This document shows, one piece after another, positions 7,498-14,493 of a stretch of DNA of 26,750 bases. A program made the position numbers and the translations under genes. The stretch is from a virus. The notes under the pieces are model-generated. The model worked only from the letters and a program-made list of their open reading frames with translations, searched no databases and was not told where the DNA came from. The stretch is from the UHGV virus genome UHGV-1449992; one strand, given 5' to 3'. Each line of letters opens with the position of its first letter. The first letter of the stretch is position 1.

Positions 7498-7514
7498 CAT
7501 TTATGGAGGCTGCA

Positions 7515-8225
7515 ATGTCAGCACTATTTGAACGCGCCCAAAAAACGGTAGTAATGATTACATCAGTGCCGGTCACTGCGGAAGAACTGGCATCAGCGAC
7601 CTGGCTCAACCTGAGTTGTACCATTAAACAGGCCAGCTTTACCGCTGGTCAGAAAAACGATATTGACGTGACAACGCTCTGCTCCGAAGAAACGGAGAAT
7701 ATCAACGGACTCCCGGCACCGTCTGAGATGTCTCTCTCCGGTAACTTCTACCGCAACCCGGCGCAGGATGCACTTCGTGCAGCATACGATAACGACGGCG
7801 TTTATGGATTTAAGGTTATTTTCCCGTCCGGAAATGGGTTCCTGATGCGTGCTGAGGTGCGTCAGCACACCTGGGATTCACAGGCAAATAGCGTTGTTGC
7901 TGCGACTTTCTCCCTTCGTCTGAAGGGTAAGCTGAGCAATATCGATGCCTCCGGCATCCTTGCATTTAGTAGCGATCTGCCAGTCACTGAATCAGTTACT
8001 GCCGGGAGTCCACTTTCCTTAAGTGTGGTGGCTACAGGTGGTAAAGCTCCATATACCTACGTATGGAAAAAAGGTTCGTCAACCATCAGCGGGCAGACCA
8101 GCGCAACGTTTAATAAGGCCAGTGCAGTTTCTGGTGATGCCGGTGTTTACTCCTGTGTAGTCACTGACTCTGCCACTCCGGCGAACGTTATCACCTCATC
8201 TGACTGCACCATCACCATCAGTTAA
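7515..8225 (+). CDS. Major tail protein with C-terminal Ig-like (Big_2-type) domain
   Basis: GGAGG ribosome-binding site before ATG 7515 (the six-frame ORF starts at 7503); C-terminal region ...SGDAGVYSCVVTDSATPANVITSSDCTITIS is Ig-like; position before the G/T pair. Confidence 0.8.
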   Translation: MSALFERAQKTVVMITSVPVTAEELASATWLNLSCTIKQASFTAGQKNDIDVTTLCSEETENINGLPAPSEMSLSGNFYRNPAQDALRAAYDNDGVYGFKVIFPSGNGFLMRAEVRQHTWDSQANSVVAATFSLRLKGKLSNIDASGILAFSSDLPVTESVTAGSPLSLSVVATGGKAPYTYVWKKGSSTISGQTSATFNKASAVSGDAGVYSCVVTDSATPANVITSSDCTITIS

Positions 8226-8255
8226 TGGAGCGCCGGGAAACCGGCGATAAACTTA

Positions 8256-8660
8256 ATGTCAAAACAGAATCTTAAAGCGCTGGCGCTGGCCCCGATGGCG
8301 GGTTTTCGTAAAAAAGAAGTCACCGTTCCGGAATGGGAAAACGCCAAAGTTATCATTCGTGAACCATCGGCTGAGGCCTGGATTCGCTGGCAGGGGATTG
8401 CCAGCCCGGAACAACCAAAACTACCGGAAGGGCAGGAAGCGCCAGAGGTGCCAGAACTGACCCCTTCAGAACGCGCGTTCCGCACGATGCGGGCAGATGT
8501 CACACTCTTCATTGATATTCTGCTGGATACCGACCTGCAGTACGTTTTCACCGTCGATGATACCGAACAGGTTGAAGCAATTTATGGCCCTGTCCATTCC
8601 CGGTTGCTGAAACAGGCGCTTGATCTCATTCGTGATGCGGATGATGCCAAAGCAAAGTAA
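8256..8660 (+). CDS. Tail assembly chaperone (lambda gpG analogue)
   Basis: 134-aa acidic ORF immediately before the tape-measure region, followed by an overlapping -1 frame ORF. Confidence 0.7.
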   Translation: MSKQNLKALALAPMAGFRKKEVTVPEWENAKVIIREPSAEAWIRWQGIASPEQPKLPEGQEAPEVPELTPSERAFRTMRADVTLFIDILLDTDLQYVFTVDDTEQVEAIYGPVHSRLLKQALDLIRDADDAKAK

Positions 8661-8968
8661 AAATGCCTGGCATGCAGTTCCTGATGGCGCTGGCGCTCCG
8701 GATGGGACGCACGCTGGGCGAACTGCGACAAACCATGACGGTTGGCGAATTCAGAATGTGGGCTGAATACGACCGTATCAGCCCGATCGGTGATATCCGT
8801 GGCGATATTCTCAATGCCCAGCTGGTTTCAGCGATGTACGGGGCGCAGGGCGGTAAAGTCACCATCGAAGATGCTCAACTCAAGTGGAGCACAGAAGAGG
8901 ATGAGGTAATCGACAGTGGCGATCCATTTGCCGGATTAGAGGCCGCTTTGCTCGCAGCATCGGAATAA
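8645..8968 (+). CDS. Tail assembly protein T-like extension, likely expressed as a G-T fusion by -1 programmed frameshift
   Basis: The -1 frame relative to G is open from 8645 to TAA at 8966-8968 and overlaps the last 5 codons of G; the A-rich sequence GCC AAA GCA AAG TAA AAA sits at the end of G. Translation ...MTVGEFRMWAEYDRISPIGDIRGDILNAQL... is gpT-like. Confidence 0.6.
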   Translation, partial: CQSKVKMPGMQFLMALALRMGRTLGELRQTMTVGEFRMWAEYDRISPIGDIRGDILNAQLVSAMYGAQGGKVTIEDAQLKWSTEEDEVIDSGDPFAGLEAALLAASE

Positions 8969-8983
8969 AATTGAATCGTCTCC

Positions 8984-9010
8984 AGCCTCGCTTCAACGCG
9001 GGGCTTTTTT
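8984..9010 (+). terminator. Rho-independent terminator after the G-T genes
   Basis: AGCCTCGC-TTCAA-CGCGGGGCT stem (one G-U pair) followed by TTTTTT. Confidence 0.55.
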
Positions 9011-9154
9011 ATACCCAAATTTCACCGCGCATCTCACGCGCACTTCACACAGAACCTTTCAGGATGAGCCTTGAGGATACCGGCTGGCTGTCGGTGCCTT
9101 TCTGTGGGCCGGATTCCTGTGAGACAAGGTTCATCACTAAAAGGTAATACCGAT

Positions 9155-9910
9155 ATGTCTAACATTGTCCCCATGAATTATGATGACCATTCATTCCCTT
9201 TTGCTTCTGATTGCTGGTTTAATGCCACAGTTGCTGCAAAGCATCACAGGAAGAGAGTGAAGAACTGGACAATTCTGGAGTCAACAAGGGATTACGTTGT
9301 CGAGTTGGCGCAAGAGCTTGATATTGAACCATTCAATTCTAAAGGGCAGATTTCTACCCTTTTAATTAGGATTGAGAAAGGCCGTTATGGCGGCACATGG
9401 ATGCACCCAGAGTTGGCCGTTGAGTTCGCCCGTTGGTTGTCAGTCAAATTTGCCCGCGCCTGCGACCGCCACATTAAAAATTTGCTGCTGAGTAAAAATT
9501 TTCAGCTCACTGAAGATCAGATTGTCGGCCTCATGGTCTGCCAGCAACCCAGTTCCTGGGAAAAAAGGTTTAAAGACCCGTTCTACCAGGCACTGTCGAA
9601 AATGTCCGGCATTCCTTATTTTGGTCATGTCGGCGGATGTCCGGCGTTGTTCGGTCAGATCACCGCTCGCTGGGTCTACGGTGTAGCACTTCCTGATTAT
9701 GTCTATCAGGCAGCTAAACAGGCAGCCGGCAACAGCAAGGAGAAGATTCATCAGCATCTTAAGCCGGATGCGCTGGAGAAGGTCGAGCAGCAACTGATCG
9801 CCGTCACAAACATTGCCAGTTGCAGCATTGACCAGAAGGACTTTGAGGCCCGTTGCATGGCTGCCTTTCCTGTCAAAGGGCAGATGAAGCTGCTGTATGC
9901 GGCGGCATAA
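9155..9910 (+). CDS. KilA-N domain protein (N-terminal KilA-N DNA-binding domain; C-terminal region possibly P63C-like); accessory gene
   Basis: ATG 9155 preceded by AAGGTAA. N-terminus ...FNATVAAKHHRKRVKNWTILESTRDYVVELAQ...RIEKGRYGGTWMHPELAVEFARWLS has the hallmarks of KilA-N; not a structural gene. Confidence 0.65.
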   Translation: MSNIVPMNYDDHSFPFASDCWFNATVAAKHHRKRVKNWTILESTRDYVVELAQELDIEPFNSKGQISTLLIRIEKGRYGGTWMHPELAVEFARWLSVKFARACDRHIKNLLLSKNFQLTEDQIVGLMVCQQPSSWEKRFKDPFYQALSKMSGIPYFGHVGGCPALFGQITARWVYGVALPDYVYQAAKQAAGNSKEKIHQHLKPDALEKVEQQLIAVTNIASCSIDQKDFEARCMAAFPVKGQMKLLYAAA

Positions 9911-9912
9911 CC

Positions 9913-10170
9913 ATGAATAACCGAATCGTTGAGTGCGCCTCCAGAGCGGGGCGCGACTTCTCTGAGTTCATGAAAGGCGAGAAGAACATGATGGAGGCGC
10001 TGCGGTCTGCGGAGGAATTCACCGAGCAGTTACGCATTCACGGCTGCGTTAATCACCATTTCGTCAATTTCATGATGATGAAAGCGATAATGAAGGTGTT
10101 CGACGATATGCAACGCGAGGAGCAGCGTGAAGAGCGCCGAAGAAAACGAGCAGAAAAGAAAGGCAAATAG
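9913..10170 (+). CDS. Small hypothetical protein (85 aa) with strongly basic/acidic C-terminal tail; accessory gene
   Basis: ATG 2 nt after the KilA-N stop codon (translationally coupled geometry); C-terminus DDMQREEQREERRRKRAEKKGK. Confidence 0.45.
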   Translation: MNNRIVECASRAGRDFSEFMKGEKNMMEALRSAEEFTEQLRIHGCVNHHFVNFMMMKAIMKVFDDMQREEQREERRRKRAEKKGK

Positions 10171-10186
10171 CCCACCCGTGTGGGCT
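10169..10186 (+). terminator. Stem-loop after the small accessory gene (weak terminator or RNA-stability hairpin)
   Basis: AGCCCAC-CCGT-GTGGGCT perfect 7-bp stem overlapping the stop codon; poor U-tract. Confidence 0.35.
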
Positions 10187-10202
10187 TTCATCGCTAACTA
10201 CA

Positions 10203-10253
10203 GCGATCCTTTTGCAGCCTTAGAGGCCGCTTTGTTTGCAGCATCAGCTTGAA
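10203..10253 (+). pseudogene. Remnant 3' end of a second T-like tail assembly gene (recombination scar)
   Basis: About 48 nt with 6 mismatches relative to 8919-8968; translates SDPFAALEAALFAASA* versus the authentic T C-terminus GDPFAGLEAALLAASE*. Confidence 0.6.
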
Positions 10254-10328
10254 TTAAACAACGATAGCTGAAGTCTTTCTTAACCAATGGTAGGATTTGA
10301 GTACTTTTCTACCTTTTGGGATAAAAAA

Positions 10329-10850
10329 ATGAAAAAAATATTGGGTGTTTTATCTTTAGTCGTTTTTGCTATAGCATTTATTATTGCGTTAAGGCAACCA
10401 ATATCAATCGTATTTCTTATTGCTGTTTTGGCGATTCCTTTAAAATATATAGATAAAATTGGCGGAGAGATTGCTTCTCTTTTGATAATATTCGGTTCTA
10501 TCTTTGTTTTGTTTTTTGTTAACTCAATGGTTCCTTTATGGGGGGAGAGGTATGAGAATCATGAGGAGTTAGTGAGAATTAGCGAGAGCGATAGGCAGAA
10601 AAGATACAACAATATGAATGTTATATCAGCAAGCAACTCTGGTGTTAAGTCTGCATTAAAAGACCCTGAATCCGCAACCTTCAAAAATCAGAGCGTTGGT
10701 CGTGAAGGGTATGTGTGCGGTCAGGTAAATGCTAAAAACAGCTTTGGTGCATACGCCGGGTTTAAAAGGTATGTAAGTAAAAATGGCATGACAATTATTG
10801 ATGATGGCGGATCTGAATTTTCGAAACTATGGGGCGAGATTTGTAAATGA
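10329..10850 (+). CDS. AT-rich accessory membrane protein (about 3 predicted TM helices plus a soluble roughly 100-aa C-terminal domain), function unknown
   Basis: ORF with visibly lower GC than its neighbours; hydrophobic N-terminus KILGVLSLVVFAIAFIIAL...IVFLIAVLAIPL...LLIIFGSIFVLFFV. Alternative in-frame start at 10287. Confidence 0.6.
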   Translation: MKKILGVLSLVVFAIAFIIALRQPISIVFLIAVLAIPLKYIDKIGGEIASLLIIFGSIFVLFFVNSMVPLWGERYENHEELVRISESDRQKRYNNMNVISASNSGVKSALKDPESATFKNQSVGREGYVCGQVNAKNSFGAYAGFKRYVSKNGMTIIDDGGSEFSKLWGEICK

Positions 10851-10911: not shown

Positions 10912-13900
10912 ATGGCAACTTTACGCGAGCTTATCATTAAGGTTTCAGCAAACTCTCAATCATTCCAGACTGAGATCGCCCGCGCATCACGCATGGGGCA
11001 AGACTATTATAAAACTATGCAGAATGGTGGGCGTCAGGCTGCTGCTGCTGCGAAGGAAAGCCAAAAAGCTCTTTCCGAGTTAACGGATGGATTTGCTTCA
11101 GCGGGTCGAGCTGCCACAATTGCAGCTGCAGCATTTGCAACAGGAAAACTGGTTCAGATTGCAGACCAATGGAACTCAGTAAATGCACGGCTTAAACAAG
11201 CCTCAGTGTCTACGAATGATTTTACTTTATCTCAAACCCGATTAATGGCGATCAGCCAGAGTACGGGCACTGCTTTTACTGATAACGCTAATTTATTTTC
11301 ACGCGCGGCAGCATCAATGCGTGAATTTGGCTACAGCTCAGATGAAGTACTCAAAATCACCGAAGCGGTATCAACAGGACTAAAACTATCTGGTGCAAGT
11401 ACAGAAGAGGCCGGCTCTGTTATTACCCAGTTTAGCCAAGCGCTTGCTCAAGGTGTTTTGCGTGGCGAAGAGTTTAACGTGGTTAACGAAGCCGGGGATC
11501 GTGTCATCCGTGCCCTGGCTGCTGGTATGGGGGTTGCCCGAAAAGATCTTAAAGCGATGGCTGACCAGGGGCAACTCACGATTGATAAAGTCGTACCAGC
11601 ATTAATCAGCCAGTTAGGTGTGTTACAGGGGGAGTTTTCCTCGTTACCGCCGACAGTTTCCGGTTCAATGCAAAAAGTCACTAACTCCTTTATGGCATGG
11701 GTTGGAGGGGTAAACCAGGCTACTGGTGCAACAGACGCACTTTCTGGCGGTCTTGATGGGCTGGCAGGTACGCTGGATTCTCTTACATCTTCTGCTGTCA
11801 GCGGGGCCCTCAGTGACGTAGCAGATAATATGTCACTAATTACCACCGCCGCAGGTGGCCTAGTTGGGATCGGATTAGCCCGGTATCTTGGCGGGATTGT
11901 TACCAGCGCAAGCAGCGCTACTGGCGCACTTATTTCAGCCGCAAAATCTGAAGTAGCCCTTGCAGTAGCCCAGGAAAAAGCCGCGCAATCTTCCGTTGCT
12001 GCTTCCCGCGCCGCAGTTTATCGTGCCCAGCAAGCCCTTCAGAGTGCTAAAAGTGCAGATGTTCAGGCCGCACAACAGGAGAGGGTTGCAGCCGCAGAAG
12101 CAAAGGTTACTGCTGCACAAGGTCGATTGACTACAGCCCTCGCCACCGGGACAGCTACAGAAAAAGTACGAGCACGAACAGCTTTGGAGCGGGCTCAGGC
12201 CGGACTTGTGGCAGCAAAAAATGCCGATGCACAGGCTATTGCAGAAAGAAAACTTGCCACAGCTCAAGCGGCGCTTAGCCGTAATATTTCAGGTAGGGTT
12301 TCTGCTCAAAATAACCTTAACAGCGTTACCTCTGTCGGCACCCGGTTGATGAGCGGGGCTCTTGGGCTGGTCGGTGGTATACCCGGGTTAGTAATGCTGG
12401 GTGCTGGCGCATGGTACGCTATGTATCAAAGCCAGGAACAAGCAAGAAAATCAGCTCAGGAGTATGCCAGCCAAATAGATCAAATCAGAGAAAAAACCTC
12501 CTCAATGACCCTACCTGAGGTCGATAGTAATCGCAGATTATCGGTTGAGGCGATGCAGGAACAAAAGCGCCTAATCGAAGAACAAGAACGGAGCGTTAAA
12601 AGTCTTAACGGACAAATAAAGGATTTAAATGAAAGTAGAAACAAGCCAGGCATTACTCAAGAAAATGATTTGAATATTACAAAGGCTATCGCAATTCTTA
12701 CCGAACAGATTGTCGTAGAAGAAGACAAGCTTCGTCAGATGCGAGAAAAGGCAAGCGATATACTAAAGGCGCAGGAGGAACAAGAAAGAAGAAGAAACGA
12801 TCTTATTAAAGATCGCGCCTGGCGTCAAAATGCTGAATACCAGAACCTTGTAATGATGACTGGTAAGTATTCCGAAGTTAACCGTTTACTTGGATTGGGA
12901 AACCAGCTTTTAATGGAACGGCAGGGCTTGGTTAACGTGCCAATGCGAATGCCTCAGGCTGATTTAACATCTCAACAAACAGCCGCACTGGAAAAAAGCC
13001 GCCGGGATTTAGATCTCTCTACACGTAAAGGCGAAGACAAGGAGCGCACCAGACTTGGCTATGTTGCAGATGATTTGGGGCTGAAGGATGAACCTCAATT
13101 CCAGACCGGAAGACAAGAGATAATTAATAATGGCATTAAAGAATGGAAAAATAACGAGGCAAATAAACCCACCCGGAAAGCGCCAAAAAGCGAAGAATTA
13201 AAAGCCGCCGAGAAGACAGAAGATGTTTACAAGCGTCTTATTAAACAGCAGGAAGAACAAATCGCTTTGGGAAGCCAGAATACCGAACTGGCTAAAGTCA
13301 AATACCAGGTGACGCAGGGTGAATTAGCTTCTCTTGAACAAGCCAAAAAAGAAATAATTCTGCAAAATGCAGCGCTTATCGATCAGAAAAACATTGCTGA
13401 ACAGTTAAAAACGTTCCGTGAGGGGCTGGCTGACAGCAACGCTGCTGCTCGTGACCGGGGAAATATTGATTTTCTTGGCGCCGGGATGGGGGATAAGGCC
13501 CGCGACCGCATGAAGGAAATGGCAGATATTCGTACTGATTTTCTCAAACAGCAGCGCGACCTGCAGCGGGATTTCAGCAAAGGTCAGATTTCTGAGGACC
13601 TGTACAAACAGCAAACGGAAGCGCTTCAGGCGGCGCTTACTGAACGGCTCCAGATTCAGGAGGACTACTACAAGAAAACCGATGAACAGCAGTCAGACTG
13701 GCGGGCGGGGATCAGCGATTCACTGATGAACTACGCCGATCAGGCTGCTGACCTCAGTTCAATGGCTGCCACCGCAACCAGCGAAATTCTGGATGCCACC
13801 ACTAACTCTATCTCCAACAACCTGACCAGCGTCCTGACTGGTGCGACTTCGTTCAAAGATGGGATGTCGAACATTTTCAGCTCTCTGGGTGAAACGGTGA

Positions 13901-14493
13901 TTAAGACGTTGATACAGATGGCAACACAGGCGCTAATCACCAAAGCGATTATGGCGTCGTTCGGCGGTGGGGCTGGTGGAATGTTCGGGAGTCTTCTTGG
14001 CGGAGGTGGGGGAGGTGGCAGCACCGGGACGGCCATTCAGAGCGCTGGTGCTAATCTTTCGTTTAATGCTCTGGGTGGTGTCTACGATTCACCTTCACTT
14101 TCCGCATACAGCGGCGGTGTATACAGCACTCCGCAGTACTTTGCGTTTGCGAAAGGCGCGGGCGTGTTCGGTGAAGCGGGACCCGAAGCGATTATGCCCC
14201 TTACCCGTGGCGCTGACGGTTCGCTGGGGGTTCGTGCGGTTGGACGTGAGTCACCGGCAGTCCAGGATGCTGCAAGGCAGCAGCAGGAAAGACAACTTCT
14301 TTCAACAGGTGATATCAACGTCAATTACCACCTCACAGGTAAACCTGATGATGTGATGATGCAGACAATGGATGCCCACGGTCGCCGCCTGGCTAAACAG
14401 ATTAAATCTGAACTGACGAGCGACGTTAACAATCCTCAAAATGCTTTCGGTAGAGCACTTTACTCCAACCTTCAGCCCAAAAAACCACGATAA
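10912..14493 (+). CDS. Tail tape measure protein
   Basis: 1193-aa ORF, Ala/Gln-rich coiled-coil-like body, Gly-rich stretch near the C-terminus; position after G/T. Confidence 0.9.
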   Translation: MATLRELIIKVSANSQSFQTEIARASRMGQDYYKTMQNGGRQAAAAAKESQKALSELTDGFASAGRAATIAAAAFATGKLVQIADQWNSVNARLKQASVSTNDFTLSQTRLMAISQSTGTAFTDNANLFSRAAASMREFGYSSDEVLKITEAVSTGLKLSGASTEEAGSVITQFSQALAQGVLRGEEFNVVNEAGDRVIRALAAGMGVARKDLKAMADQGQLTIDKVVPALISQLGVLQGEFSSLPPTVSGSMQKVTNSFMAWVGGVNQATGATDALSGGLDGLAGTLDSLTSSAVSGALSDVADNMSLITTAAGGLVGIGLARYLGGIVTSASSATGALISAAKSEVALAVAQEKAAQSSVAASRAAVYRAQQALQSAKSADVQAAQQERVAAAEAKVTAAQGRLTTALATGTATEKVRARTALERAQAGLVAAKNADAQAIAERKLATAQAALSRNISGRVSAQNNLNSVTSVGTRLMSGALGLVGGIPGLVMLGAGAWYAMYQSQEQARKSAQEYASQIDQIREKTSSMTLPEVDSNRRLSVEAMQEQKRLIEEQERSVKSLNGQIKDLNESRNKPGITQENDLNITKAIAILTEQIVVEEDKLRQMREKASDILKAQEEQERRRNDLIKDRAWRQNAEYQNLVMMTGKYSEVNRLLGLGNQLLMERQGLVNVPMRMPQADLTSQQTAALEKSRRDLDLSTRKGEDKERTRLGYVADDLGLKDEPQFQTGRQEIINNGIKEWKNNEANKPTRKAPKSEELKAAEKTEDVYKRLIKQQEEQIALGSQNTELAKVKYQVTQGELASLEQAKKEIILQNAALIDQKNIAEQLKTFREGLADSNAAARDRGNIDFLGAGMGDKARDRMKEMADIRTDFLKQQRDLQRDFSKGQISEDLYKQQTEALQAALTERLQIQEDYYKKTDEQQSDWRAGISDSLMNYADQAADLSSMAATATSEILDATTNSISNNLTSVLTGATSFKDGMSNIFSSLGETVIKTLIQMATQALITKAIMASFGGGAGGMFGSLLGGGGGGGSTGTAIQSAGANLSFNALGGVYDSPSLSAYSGGVYSTPQYFAFAKGAGVFGEAGPEAIMPLTRGADGSLGVRAVGRESPAVQDAARQQQERQLLSTGDINVNYHLTGKPDDVMMQTMDAHGRRLAKQIKSELTSDVNNPQNAFGRALYSNLQPKKPR

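What the first reader, a model, noticed from the sequence alone, without database searches (positions are those of the whole stretch)
8645..8665. G/G-T programmed -1 frameshift geometry
The T-like ORF is in the -1 frame relative to G and is open from 8645, overlapping the last five codons of G. The only lysine-rich slip-prone sequence is GCC AAA GCA AAG TAA AAA at the very end of G, which is not the canonical lambda G GGA AAG heptamer. The conserved tail-chaperone frameshift is expected, but the exact slip site would be atypical, shifting at the final AAG onto AAA.
Basis: partly seen in the sequence, partly recalled or inferred. Interest (0 to 1): 0.4.

Follow-up and report, generated by a model that had tools for sequence, protein, structure and literature searches.

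The report
Tail-chaperone G/GT frameshift, minimal slip site
This is the usual frameshift by which a phage makes a small amount of a fused tail-assembly chaperone (G-T), here in a Klebsiella HK97-like prophage. Its slip signal is cut down to four bases, A_AAG, placed directly against the stop codon of G, so it is ordinary biology with a mildly unusual signal.

Summary
G (8256-8660, Pfam Phage_TAC_1) ends GCC AAA GCA AAG TAA. The T frame (Pfam Phage_tail_T) is the -1 frame and is open from 8645. No X_XXY_YYZ heptamer lies in the 16-nt overlap.

- The site aligns without gaps to the place where the annotated HK97 -1 product (NP_037707.1) changes frame.
- In 42 diverse relatives that Lys codon is AAG every time, and the base before it is always A.
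- 50 of 55 distinct junctions have no start codon in the T frame upstream of a conserved Pro, so T is reachable there only by frameshifting. ATG 8663 is peculiar to the Klebsiella/Raoultella clade.

Most relatives carry A_AAA_AAG flush against the stop. The reduced form GCA_AAG_TAA occurs in at least three separate clades, always flush against a stop.

A 55-nt hairpin (8665-8719, 7-nt spacer) is a candidate stimulator. Synonymous variation collapses there within the clade (p = 8e-6), but there is no covariation and no family-wide structure.

No database record found annotates the fusion in this clade. Verdict: a new member of a known kind. No GT protein has been observed for this locus, and some free T made from ATG 8663 cannot be excluded.

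The parts
8256..8660 (+). Gene G, tail assembly chaperone: 134 aa, zero frame, stop TAA 8658-8660
   Evidence: ORF list. PF06222 Phage_TAC_1 E = 5e-44. phrog_344 'tail assembly chaperone' 2e-40. The exact protein is on 844 contigs, named as Klebsiella phage tail assembly chaperone.
8645..8660 (+). Overlap in which the -1 (T) frame is already open while G is still being read. Any -1 shift must happen here.
   Evidence: -1-frame stop TGA at 8642-8644 and G stop at 8658-8660. In 45 of 79 close relatives GCT AAA puts a -1-frame TAA at the equivalent of 8648-8650.
8654..8657 (+). Slip tetranucleotide A_AAG. tRNA-Lys reading AAG (8655-8657) re-pairs with AAA (8654-8656). The preceding codon GCA (8652-8654) cannot re-pair in the -1 frame (AGC).
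   Evidence: Aligns without gaps with the junction of the HK97 product. AAG in 42 of 42 relatives with A before it. Junction survey. A_AA.G is the most efficient tetramer in E. coli (PMC4066793).
8658..8660 (+). G stop codon UAA directly 3' of the slip codon ('shifty stop' arrangement). After the shift the A-site codon is GUA (Val, 8657-8659).
   Evidence: All 14 junctions with no P-site re-pairing (GCA_AAG, A_GAA_AAG) have the stop flush against AAG, against 24 of 43 heptamer-capable junctions. Fisher p = 0.002, not corrected for phylogeny.
8665..8719 (+). Candidate stimulatory stem-loop: 55 nt, about -28 kcal/mol, 7-nt spacer UAAAAAU after A_AAG
   Evidence: MFE z = -2.3 against dinucleotide shuffles. 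More stable than 98% of 1000 synonymous recodings. Third-position polymorphism is 5/23 inside 8655-8722 and 142/202 outside, p = 8e-6. No covariation and no family-wide consensus.
8657..8968 (+). T-frame coding sequence read after the shift: V K M P G M Q F L M ... A A S E, stop TAA 8966-8968. The predicted GT fusion is 134 + 103 = 237 aa.
   Evidence: PF06223 Phage_tail_T 6e-18. phrog_14766 positions 127-223 of 224. Fusion built. Val1 and Pro4 are conserved upstream of any start codon in relatives.
8663..8665 (+). ATG that annotation pipelines use as the start of 'T' (101 aa). Specific to this clade, 2 nt after the G stop, with no Shine-Dalgarno-like sequence upstream.
   Evidence: Annotated as a separate CDS in every record inspected. 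Present only in the window and the Klebsiella/Raoultella loci, and absent from 50 of 55 distinct junctions.
7503..8225 (+). Major tail protein gene with a C-terminal Ig-like domain; upstream neighbour that fixes the genomic context
   Evidence: phrog_158 8e-96; PF13927 and PF13895.
10912..14493 (+). Tape measure protein gene; downstream partner of G/GT. Separated from T here by inserted genes.
   Evidence: PF06120 Phage_HK97_TLTM 4e-66 and PF20155.

Best explanation
Genes 8256-8660 and 8657-8968 are the G and T halves of an HK97-type tail assembly chaperone pair in a Klebsiella prophage.

Most ribosomes read G and terminate at UAA 8658-8660. A few per cent slip back one base on A_AAG (8654-8657): tRNA-Lys leaves AAG and re-pairs perfectly with AAA. 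They then read GUA AAA AUG CCU... and make a 237-aa GT fusion with the junction ...DADDAKAK|VKMPGMQFLM.

The preceding codon GCA cannot re-pair, so this is a single-tRNA slip, not the tandem slip of lambda (G_GGA_AAG) or of most relatives (A_AAA_AAG). I infer that the slip is helped by the stop codon lying directly in the A site, a slow-to-decode 'shifty stop' that leaves peptidyl-tRNA-Lys in the P site. I also infer possible help from a 55-nt stem-loop that begins 7 nt downstream.

By analogy with lambda, G and the G part of GT would coat the tape measure protein, and the T part would recruit the major tail protein.

Shown here: ORF identities, frame geometry, homology of the site, conservation of A_AAG, absence of T starts in relatives, and the dip in synonymous variation. 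Inferred: that the fusion is made, how efficiently, and what the stop and the hairpin contribute.
For: - Identity and context: Pfam and PHROG hits, and position between the major tail and tape measure genes.
- HK97 gp13/gp14 is a homologue (T 64% identical) and is annotated 'translated due to a -1 frameshift'. The fusion I predicted from a shift at its GAA_AAG is exactly NP_037707.1. That site aligns base for base with window 8652-8657.
- Across 80 species-level loci and 9 phages the slip codon is always A_AAG (A_AAC in Halomonas and Moraxella phages) at that aligned position. AAG is found in 42 of 42.
- 50 of 55 distinct junctions have no ATG, GTG or TTG in the T frame upstream of the conserved Pro4. 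Pro4 uses all four codons, so it is under protein-level selection. The T N-terminus is therefore reachable only from G.
- GCA_AAG_TAA occurs in at least 3 separate clades of a neighbour-joining tree, nested among A_AAA_AAG-plus-stop lineages. In the Pantoea/Erwinia clade the flanking codons vary synonymously while GCA_AAG_TAA stays fixed.
- The isolated phage vB_VIPKPNMC05 carries the same junction, differing only by a GCT/GCC change two codons upstream.
- Hairpin and synonymous-site suppression.
- Literature: A_AA.G is the best tetramer, reaching 5.6% with a pseudoknot (PMC4066793). NNA_AAG sites are used naturally, e.g. by IS1222 (PMC5009743). Two genes of an HK97-like tail assembly chaperone cluster were measured at 6-7% frameshifting (PMC3711429).
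Against: - No protein, ribosome-profiling or reporter data exist for this locus or its clade.
- In E. coli the tetramer alone is barely above background: 0.147% with the motif against 0.112% without it, when no stimulator is present (PMC4066793). A working site therefore depends on stimulators that I only infer.
- The hairpin has no covariation support. It is absent as a family-wide consensus. Most clade members carry a U.C mismatch in it.
- The deep synonymous dip could instead reflect a recently exchanged segment.
- ATG 8663 lies 2 nt after the stop, so termination-reinitiation could also give free T.
- The exact 237-aa fusion is in no database.
Confidence: 0.8

Rival explanations
1. In this clade T is made mainly as a free 101-aa protein from ATG 8663, by termination-reinitiation after the G stop (UAAAAAUG). 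The degraded heptamer would then mean that frameshifting has been replaced or supplemented.
For: ATG 8663 exists only in the Klebsiella/Raoultella clade, the same clade in which the heptamer is reduced to a tetramer. Every annotation pipeline calls T as a separate gene from this ATG. A gap of 2 nt between stop and start is compatible with translational coupling (general knowledge).
Against: Other lineages with the same GCA_AAG_TAA or GAA_AAG_TAA site (Pantoea, Erwinia, Kalamiella, Silvania, Phytobacter, Yersinia) have no such ATG, so tetramer plus stop suffices without it. A_AAG is strictly kept. No Shine-Dalgarno-like sequence precedes 8663 (read from the sequence), and the ATG sits at the foot of the predicted hairpin. 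In lambda the T domain is described as working as part of GT, linking tape-measure-bound G to the major tail protein (PMC5009743).
Confidence: 0.1
2. The frame change happens in the overlap but not at A_AAG, for example tRNA-Lys at AAA 8649-8651 slipping onto CAA, or a -1 event without re-pairing.
For: AAA at 8649-8651 also lies within the open overlap of the window sequence.
Against: Re-pairing AAA onto CAA (UAA in relatives) mismatches the first base. In 45 of 79 close relatives that -1 codon is a stop, TAA. The position is not conserved as Lys across the family, whereas the final AAG is invariant.
Confidence: 0.03
3. The site is a decayed remnant. The prophage no longer makes GT, and the arrangement is tolerated only because the prophage is defective.
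For: The heptamer typical of relatives is lost. The region between T and the tape measure gene carries a 1.28-kb insertion with a terminator.
Against: The same slip site and downstream block are invariant in 79 viral contigs and occur in isolated Klebsiella phages, including vB_VIPKPNMC05 recovered from creek water. G and T are intact and under purifying selection. The same architecture recurs in at least 3 clades.
Confidence: 0.03
4. The fusion arises from transcriptional slippage, RNA polymerase adding an A, and not from ribosomal slippage.
For: Relatives with A_AAA_AAG carry runs of 7-8 A, where some polymerase slippage is conceivable. Longer A runs gave higher frame-change efficiency in another gene family (PMC3711429).
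Against: The window has only AAA before the G, and the A5 run 8659-8663 begins inside the stop codon, so no insertion there can remove the stop.
Confidence: 0.01

Closest known systems
Phage HK97 gp13/gp14, tail assembly chaperone pair with an annotated -1 frameshift (NC_002167, NP_037708 / NP_037707)
   Same: Homologous G (PF06222) and T (PF06223; T 64% identical). Same gene order between major tail and tape measure genes. The slip Lys codon A_AAG sits at the same aligned position, followed by Val in the new frame. A moron lies between T and the tape measure gene in both.
   Different: HK97 has CGG_GAA_AAG, where the P-site tRNA-Glu can partly re-pair on GGA, and G continues for five more sense codons (SQPPA) before its stop. 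The window has GCA_AAG with no P-site re-pairing and the stop flush against AAG. HK97 has no ATG corresponding to 8663.
Phage lambda G/GT programmed -1 frameshift (Levin, Hendrix and Casjens 1993; Xu, Hendrix and Duda 2004, 2013, 2014, as cited in PMC5009743)
   Same: Two overlapping ORFs upstream of the tape measure gene. The downstream one is in the -1 frame. The T domain is in the same Pfam family (PF06223). The expected logic is a low-level fusion, about 30:1 G:GT in lambda.
   Different: Lambda slips on the heptamer G_GGA_AAG by tandem slippage, several codons before the G stop. Lambda G is not in PF06222. A lambda-type G_GGA_AAG_CCG_TAA site does occur in some members of this family (phage Fraca; L121, L128, L129, L133, L134), one codon upstream of the window's site.
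A_AAA_AAG-plus-stop junctions of the same family (Stx-converting and related prophages such as YYZ-2008, Proteus phage Pm34, E. coli phage 606R7)
   Same: Same family and same aligned slip codon. The G stop codon lies directly after AAG, and the new frame continues with Val. Fusion of the YYZ type is present in the protein collection.
   Different: These have the full dnaX-type heptamer, which allows tandem P- and A-site re-pairing. The window keeps only the last four bases.
Tetra- and hexanucleotide -1 sites Z_ZZN / NNA_AAG (IS1222 G_CGA_AAG; Bacillus subtilis cdd A_CGA_AAG; synthetic A_AA.G constructs)
   Same: Single-tRNA slip of tRNA-Lys from AAG to AAA, with a non-slippery 5' codon ending in A (PMC5009743; PMC4066793).
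   Different: Those sites are in IS and cellular genes and rely on a downstream pseudoknot or hairpin. None of them is described there as flush against the zero-frame stop. GCA as the 5' codon was not looked up, because the Licznar et al. 2003 paper was not available.
'Shifty stop' frameshifting (Weiss et al. 1987, cited in PMC5009743; prfB +1 at CUU_UGA)
   Same: A stop codon in the A site directly 3' of the slippery codon; the slow step is thought to favour P-site re-pairing.
   Different: The well-studied natural cases are +1 (prfB, antizyme). A role for the stop in this -1 event is inferred only from its strict association with tetramer-only junctions.

Membership tests
G/GT tail assembly chaperone pair with conserved programmed frameshift (Xu, Hendrix and Duda 2004 class) | Two consecutive ORFs between the major tail protein gene and the tape measure gene | tested here: met
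   Major tail gene 7503-8225, G 8256-8660, T to 8968, tape measure gene 10912-14493. Three inserted genes lie between T and the tape measure gene. Two of them are absent from relative L001.
G/GT tail assembly chaperone pair with conserved programmed frameshift (Xu, Hendrix and Duda 2004 class) | The upstream ORF is a G-type chaperone and the downstream ORF a T-type domain | tested here: met
   PF06222 5e-44 and PF06223 6e-18. phrog_14766 (224 positions) covers G at 3-122 and T at 127-223.
G/GT tail assembly chaperone pair with conserved programmed frameshift (Xu, Hendrix and Duda 2004 class) | The downstream ORF is in the -1 frame and open across the 3' end of the upstream ORF | tested here: met
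   The -1 frame is open from 8645 and the G stop is at 8658-8660, a 16-nt overlap.
G/GT tail assembly chaperone pair with conserved programmed frameshift (Xu, Hendrix and Duda 2004 class) | A slippery sequence lies in the overlap and is conserved among relatives | tested here: met
   A_AAG at 8654-8657. AAG in 42 of 42 relatives with A before it. Same aligned position as the junction of the HK97 product.
G/GT tail assembly chaperone pair with conserved programmed frameshift (Xu, Hendrix and Duda 2004 class) | The downstream ORF lacks its own translation start, so T is made only as a fusion | tested here: inconclusive
   Met in the family: 50 of 55 junctions have no start upstream of Pro4. Not met literally in the window, where ATG 8663 lies 2 nt after the stop. 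No Shine-Dalgarno-like sequence is present. Whether that ATG is used is unknown.
G/GT tail assembly chaperone pair with conserved programmed frameshift (Xu, Hendrix and Duda 2004 class) | A GT fusion protein is produced at a low ratio to G | not testable with these tools
   Needs western blot, mass spectrometry or a reporter assay. Indirect support only: two HK97-like cluster genes gave 6-7% frameshifting (PMC3711429). Their sequences were not retrievable.
Canonical tandem-slippage heptamer X_XXY_YYZ (lambda G_GGA_AAG, dnaX A_AAA_AAG) | Both the P-site and the A-site codon can re-pair in the -1 frame | tested here: not met
   The heptamer is A_GCA_AAG. GCA shifted to AGC has no re-pairing. No other heptamer lies in 8645-8660.
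Minimal Z_ZZN tetranucleotide / NNA_AAG hexanucleotide -1 sites | A-site or single-tRNA cognate re-pairing on A_AAG | tested here: met
   AAG 8655-8657 onto AAA 8654-8656. Motif hierarchy A_AA.G >> U_UU.C > others (PMC4066793).
Minimal Z_ZZN tetranucleotide / NNA_AAG hexanucleotide -1 sites | A stimulator is needed, typically an RNA structure starting 5-8 nt downstream | tested here: inconclusive
   Hairpin 8665-8719 with a 7-nt spacer. z = -2.3, and it beats 98% of synonymous recodings. There is a strong synonymous-site dip within the clade. Against this, there is no covariation and no family-wide structure, and hairpin stability does not differ between tetramer and heptamer classes.
'Shifty stop' context | The zero-frame stop codon lies immediately 3' of the slip codon | tested here: met
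   AAG UAA at 8655-8660. 14 of 14 tetramer-only junctions are flush with a stop, against 24 of 43 heptamer-capable ones. A causal role was not tested.

The most novel reading that the evidence does not exclude
The tetramer-only junctions (GCA_AAG_UAA or GAA_AAG_UAA) may form a distinct, repeatedly evolved class of natural -1 recoding signal in phage tail chaperone genes. In this class the adjacent stop codon would be an obligatory stimulator of single-tRNA P-site slippage. In the Klebsiella/Phytobacter lineage it would be supplemented by a lineage-specific 55-nt hairpin. A rarer version of this reading is that the clade-specific ATG 8663 adds a second route, so that both GT and free T are made.
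Probability: 0.3. Interest if true: 0.45.

Novelty: new member of a known kind. Interest (0 to 1): 0.27.

Why it matters
Practically, T is annotated as an independent 101-aa gene ('phage tail assembly protein T' or 'DUF4035 domain-containing protein') in every Klebsiella phage and prophage record I inspected. The 237-aa fusion is in no database. Annotation of this widespread prophage family therefore misses its GT product, and frameshift predictors that look for heptamers would miss it too.

For the study of recoding, the family offers a natural series at one aligned position: A_AAA_AAG plus stop, GAA_AAG plus stop, GCA_AAG plus stop, G_GAA_AAG plus sense codons, and G_GGA_AAG. This series could be used to measure how much an adjacent stop codon and a 3' hairpin compensate for loss of P-site re-pairing in bacterial -1 frameshifting. 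It does not change the understanding of tail assembly.

Tried and rejected
- RNAalifold on 47 diverse junctions gave no consensus structure. Imposing the window's hairpin on them gave 63% paired cells against 61% in shuffles. A family-wide stimulatory structure is therefore rejected.
- I compared the best downstream hairpin energies between tetramer and heptamer classes and found no systematic difference. 'Tetramer sites always compensate with stronger hairpins' is not supported.
- Rfam, both at gathering thresholds over the whole window and by permissive E-value over 8400-9100, found nothing relevant.
- A nine-sequence T alignment was too diverse for a locus search. A five-sequence alignment worked.
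- Licznar et al. 2003, on NNA_AAG hexamers and including the effect of GCA, was not available.
- Xu et al. 2004 is not held in the library, so whether HK97's shift was confirmed experimentally rests on the GenBank annotation, not on a paper I read.
- The supplement of PMC3711429 did not contain the tested tail-chaperone cassettes.
- An upstream Shine-Dalgarno-like stimulator: none is visible 6-17 nt upstream of 8654 (read by eye). Some relatives have GAGG or GGAGG, but at variable and mostly very short spacing, so I did not pursue it.
- Control clades show only about a 2-fold synonymous dip, confined to about -30 to +40 of the junction. The window clade shows a 10- to 30-fold dip that extends to about +75. 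I could not separate selection from a recently exchanged segment.

Full report
**1. What is in the sequence**

G runs from ATG 8256 to TAA 8658-8660 (134 aa) and ends GAT GAT GCC AAA GCA AAG TAA. The frame one base back has TGA at 8642-8644 and is then open to TAA 8966-8968. It reads C Q S K V K M P G M Q F L M..., with ATG at 8663.

The 16-nt overlap holds no X_XXY_YYZ heptamer. The only perfect -1 re-pairing is AAG (8655-8657) onto AAA (8654-8656).

G is Pfam PF06222 (Phage_TAC_1, E = 5e-44). The downstream ORF is PF06223 (Phage_tail_T, 6e-18). One PHROG profile of 224 positions (phrog_14766) matches G with its first half and T with its second half. The pair lies after the major tail gene (7503-8225) and before the tape measure gene (10912-14493; PF06120 'HK97 TLTM').

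**2. Where it comes from**

The DNA is about 90% identical to a group of temperate Klebsiella phages and to prophages in 12 E. coli genomes. The exact G protein is on 844 contigs and the exact T protein on 87, named from Klebsiella michiganensis, K. oxytoca, K. pneumoniae and Raoultella.

Every record inspected annotates G and T as separate genes, with T starting at the ATG equivalent to 8663. The 237-aa fusion I predict is not in the 15-billion-protein collection.

**3. The site matches a known frameshift site**

HK97 is a homologue (T 64% identical). Its record carries a joined CDS 'translated due to a -1 frameshift'. The fusion obtained by shifting at HK97's ...CGG GAA AAG|TCT... is exactly NP_037707.1.

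HK97 GAAAAGTCTCAACCCCCGGCGTAAAGTTTCTGATG and window GCAAAGTAAAAATGCCTGGCATGCAGTTCCTGATG align without gaps, so the two A_AAG motifs coincide.

**4. Family survey**

Nine phages and 80 species-level genome loci show one aligned slip position with several signal types:

| Signal | Where found |
|---|---|
| A_AAA_AAG directly followed by TAA or TAG | The commonest form: Serratia, Proteus, Morganella, Providencia, Yersinia, Xenorhabdus, Kosakonia, Stx-type prophages |
| G_GAA_AAG followed by sense codons | HK97 type |
| G_GGA_AAG_CCG_TAA or G_GAA_AAG_CCG_TAA | Lambda-like, one codon upstream |
| A_AAA_AAC plus stop | Halomonas group |
| GCA_AAG_TAA or GAA_AAG_TAA | The window's type |

The Lys codon is AAG in 42 of 42 diverse sequences, always preceded by A. 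Other conserved two-codon residues in the same alignment use both codons freely.

A neighbour-joining tree of the G C-terminus plus the T N-terminus places GCA_AAG_TAA in at least three separate clades, each nested among A_AAA_AAG-plus-stop lineages:
- Klebsiella/Raoultella, with Phytobacter GAA_AAG_TAA as sister;
- Pantoea/Erwinia/Kalamiella;
- Silvania with other Pantoea.

In viral contigs of the Pantoea/Erwinia clade the codons upstream vary synonymously (GAG/GAA, GCA/GCG/GCC) while GCA_AAG_TAA is fixed. The reduced site is therefore a recurrent and maintained state, not decay.

**5. T cannot generally be made on its own**

In 50 of 55 distinct junctions the T frame has no ATG, GTG or TTG between its upstream stop and the conserved Pro4. 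Pro4 uses all four codons, which shows protein-level selection. Only the Klebsiella/Raoultella clade has the ATG at T3. Phytobacter has ACG at that position.

In 45 of 79 close relatives GCC is GCT, which puts TAA in the -1 frame and shortens the open overlap to AGCAAAGTAA. That leaves A_AAG as the only site with good re-pairing.

The junction is also present in isolated phages such as vB_VIPKPNMC05, which differs only at that GCT/GCC position, so it is compatible with making working tails.

**6. Mechanism**

GCA cannot re-pair as AGC, so tandem slippage is excluded and a single tRNA-Lys slip is required.

In E. coli, A_AA.G is by far the best tetramer. It reaches only 5.6% even with the IS3 pseudoknot, and averaged over the 16 tetramers it is barely above background without a stimulator: 0.147% with the motif against 0.112% without (PMC4066793). 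NNA_AAG sites are used naturally by IS1222, and their efficiency depends on the tRNA that reads the 5' codon (PMC5009743). There are two candidate stimulators here.

(a) The stop codon flush against AAG. All 14 junctions without P-site re-pairing have it, against 24 of 43 heptamer-capable junctions. Fisher p = 0.002, not corrected for phylogeny. The inference is P-site slippage while the A site holds a slowly decoded UAA, after which GUA (Val) is read.

(b) A stem-loop at 8665-8719 (55 nt, about -28 kcal/mol) that starts 7 nt after the motif.
- Its MFE has z = -2.3 against dinucleotide shuffles.
- It is more stable than 98% of 1000 synonymous recodings.
- Among 65 distinct clade sequences, third-codon-position polymorphism is 5/23 inside 8655-8722 and 142/202 outside (p = 8e-6).
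- Phytobacter is 93-97% identical over the 60 nt after the slip site, against 43-80% in the other bins.
- Two control clades show only a 2-fold dip, restricted to about -30 to +40.

Against the hairpin:
- There are no compensatory changes.
- Most clade members carry a U.C mismatch in it.
- There is no consensus structure across the family.
- Hairpin strength does not differ between motif classes.
- A recently exchanged DNA segment would give the same dip.

I therefore treat the hairpin as a candidate only.

**7. What is known, and how new this is**

The G/GT frameshift is a textbook conserved feature (PMC5009743). Two genes of an HK97-like tail-chaperone cluster were measured at 6-7% frameshifting (PMC3711429). 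This locus is a member of that family. What is particular is the signal: four bases, flush with the stop, and unannotated in this clade. All of its components are individually known. I file it as a new member of a known kind, with a reduced slip signal.

**8. Limits**

Nothing here shows that the GT protein exists. Efficiency, the roles of the stop and the hairpin, and use of ATG 8663 all remain inference. The Fisher tests ignore shared ancestry.

Noticed in passing
window 8919-8961 and 10203-10245 (insertion about 8962-10245): A 43-nt direct repeat (86% identical, 1284 nt apart) duplicates the 3' end of T on either side of an inserted cassette. The relic copy still reads ...SDPFAALEAALFAASA* (ORF 10127-10252). 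In Klebsiella phage vB_VIPKPNMC05 (L001) the end of T runs straight into the homologue of 10287-10850. The window therefore carries a moron-type insertion made by recombination within the end of T.
   Followed up: partly
window 8984-9005; 9152-9910; about 9913-10170: Contents of the cassette: an intrinsic-terminator-like hairpin with a T-run directly after T, inside a late operon; a KilA-N plus P63C domain gene (phrog_1136); and a small phrog_875 gene of unknown function.
   Followed up: partly
window 10287-10850: A 187-aa ORF (phrog_16400 / phrog_2320, no Pfam hit, hydrophobic N-terminal half) lies between T and the tape measure gene. It is also present in L001 and L003, at the position of the HK97 gp15 moron.
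   Followed up: no
alignment A3 columns 39-56, equivalent to window 8693-8710; loci L098-L163: Many relatives keep the generally less-preferred codons CTC-CGG-NTG-GGG-CGC at T14-T18. Together with GCG at T13 these can form a 7-bp hairpin, GCGCUCC-GGNU-GGGGCGC, about 37 nt after the slip site. The window (GGGACGC) and most of its clade (GGGCCGC) break it. Its function, if any, is unknown.
   Followed up: partly
L108 (Candidatus Symbiopectobacterium endolongispinus) and L152 (Serratia sp. L9): In these loci the A-run at the slip site has a different length, and the G frame is open for only 74 and 41 codons. They may be pseudogenised chaperones in a symbiont and a prophage, or sequencing errors in a homopolymer.
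   Followed up: no
window 8231-8246: A GC-rich hairpin, CGCCGG-GAAA-CCGGCG, with no T-run lies between the major tail gene and G. HK97 has a feature annotated as a 'putative terminator' at the same place. No obvious Shine-Dalgarno sequence precedes ATG 8256.
   Followed up: no
window 7503-8225: The major tail protein carries an in-frame C-terminal Ig-like domain (PF13927 / PF13895, residues about 160-238).
   Followed up: no
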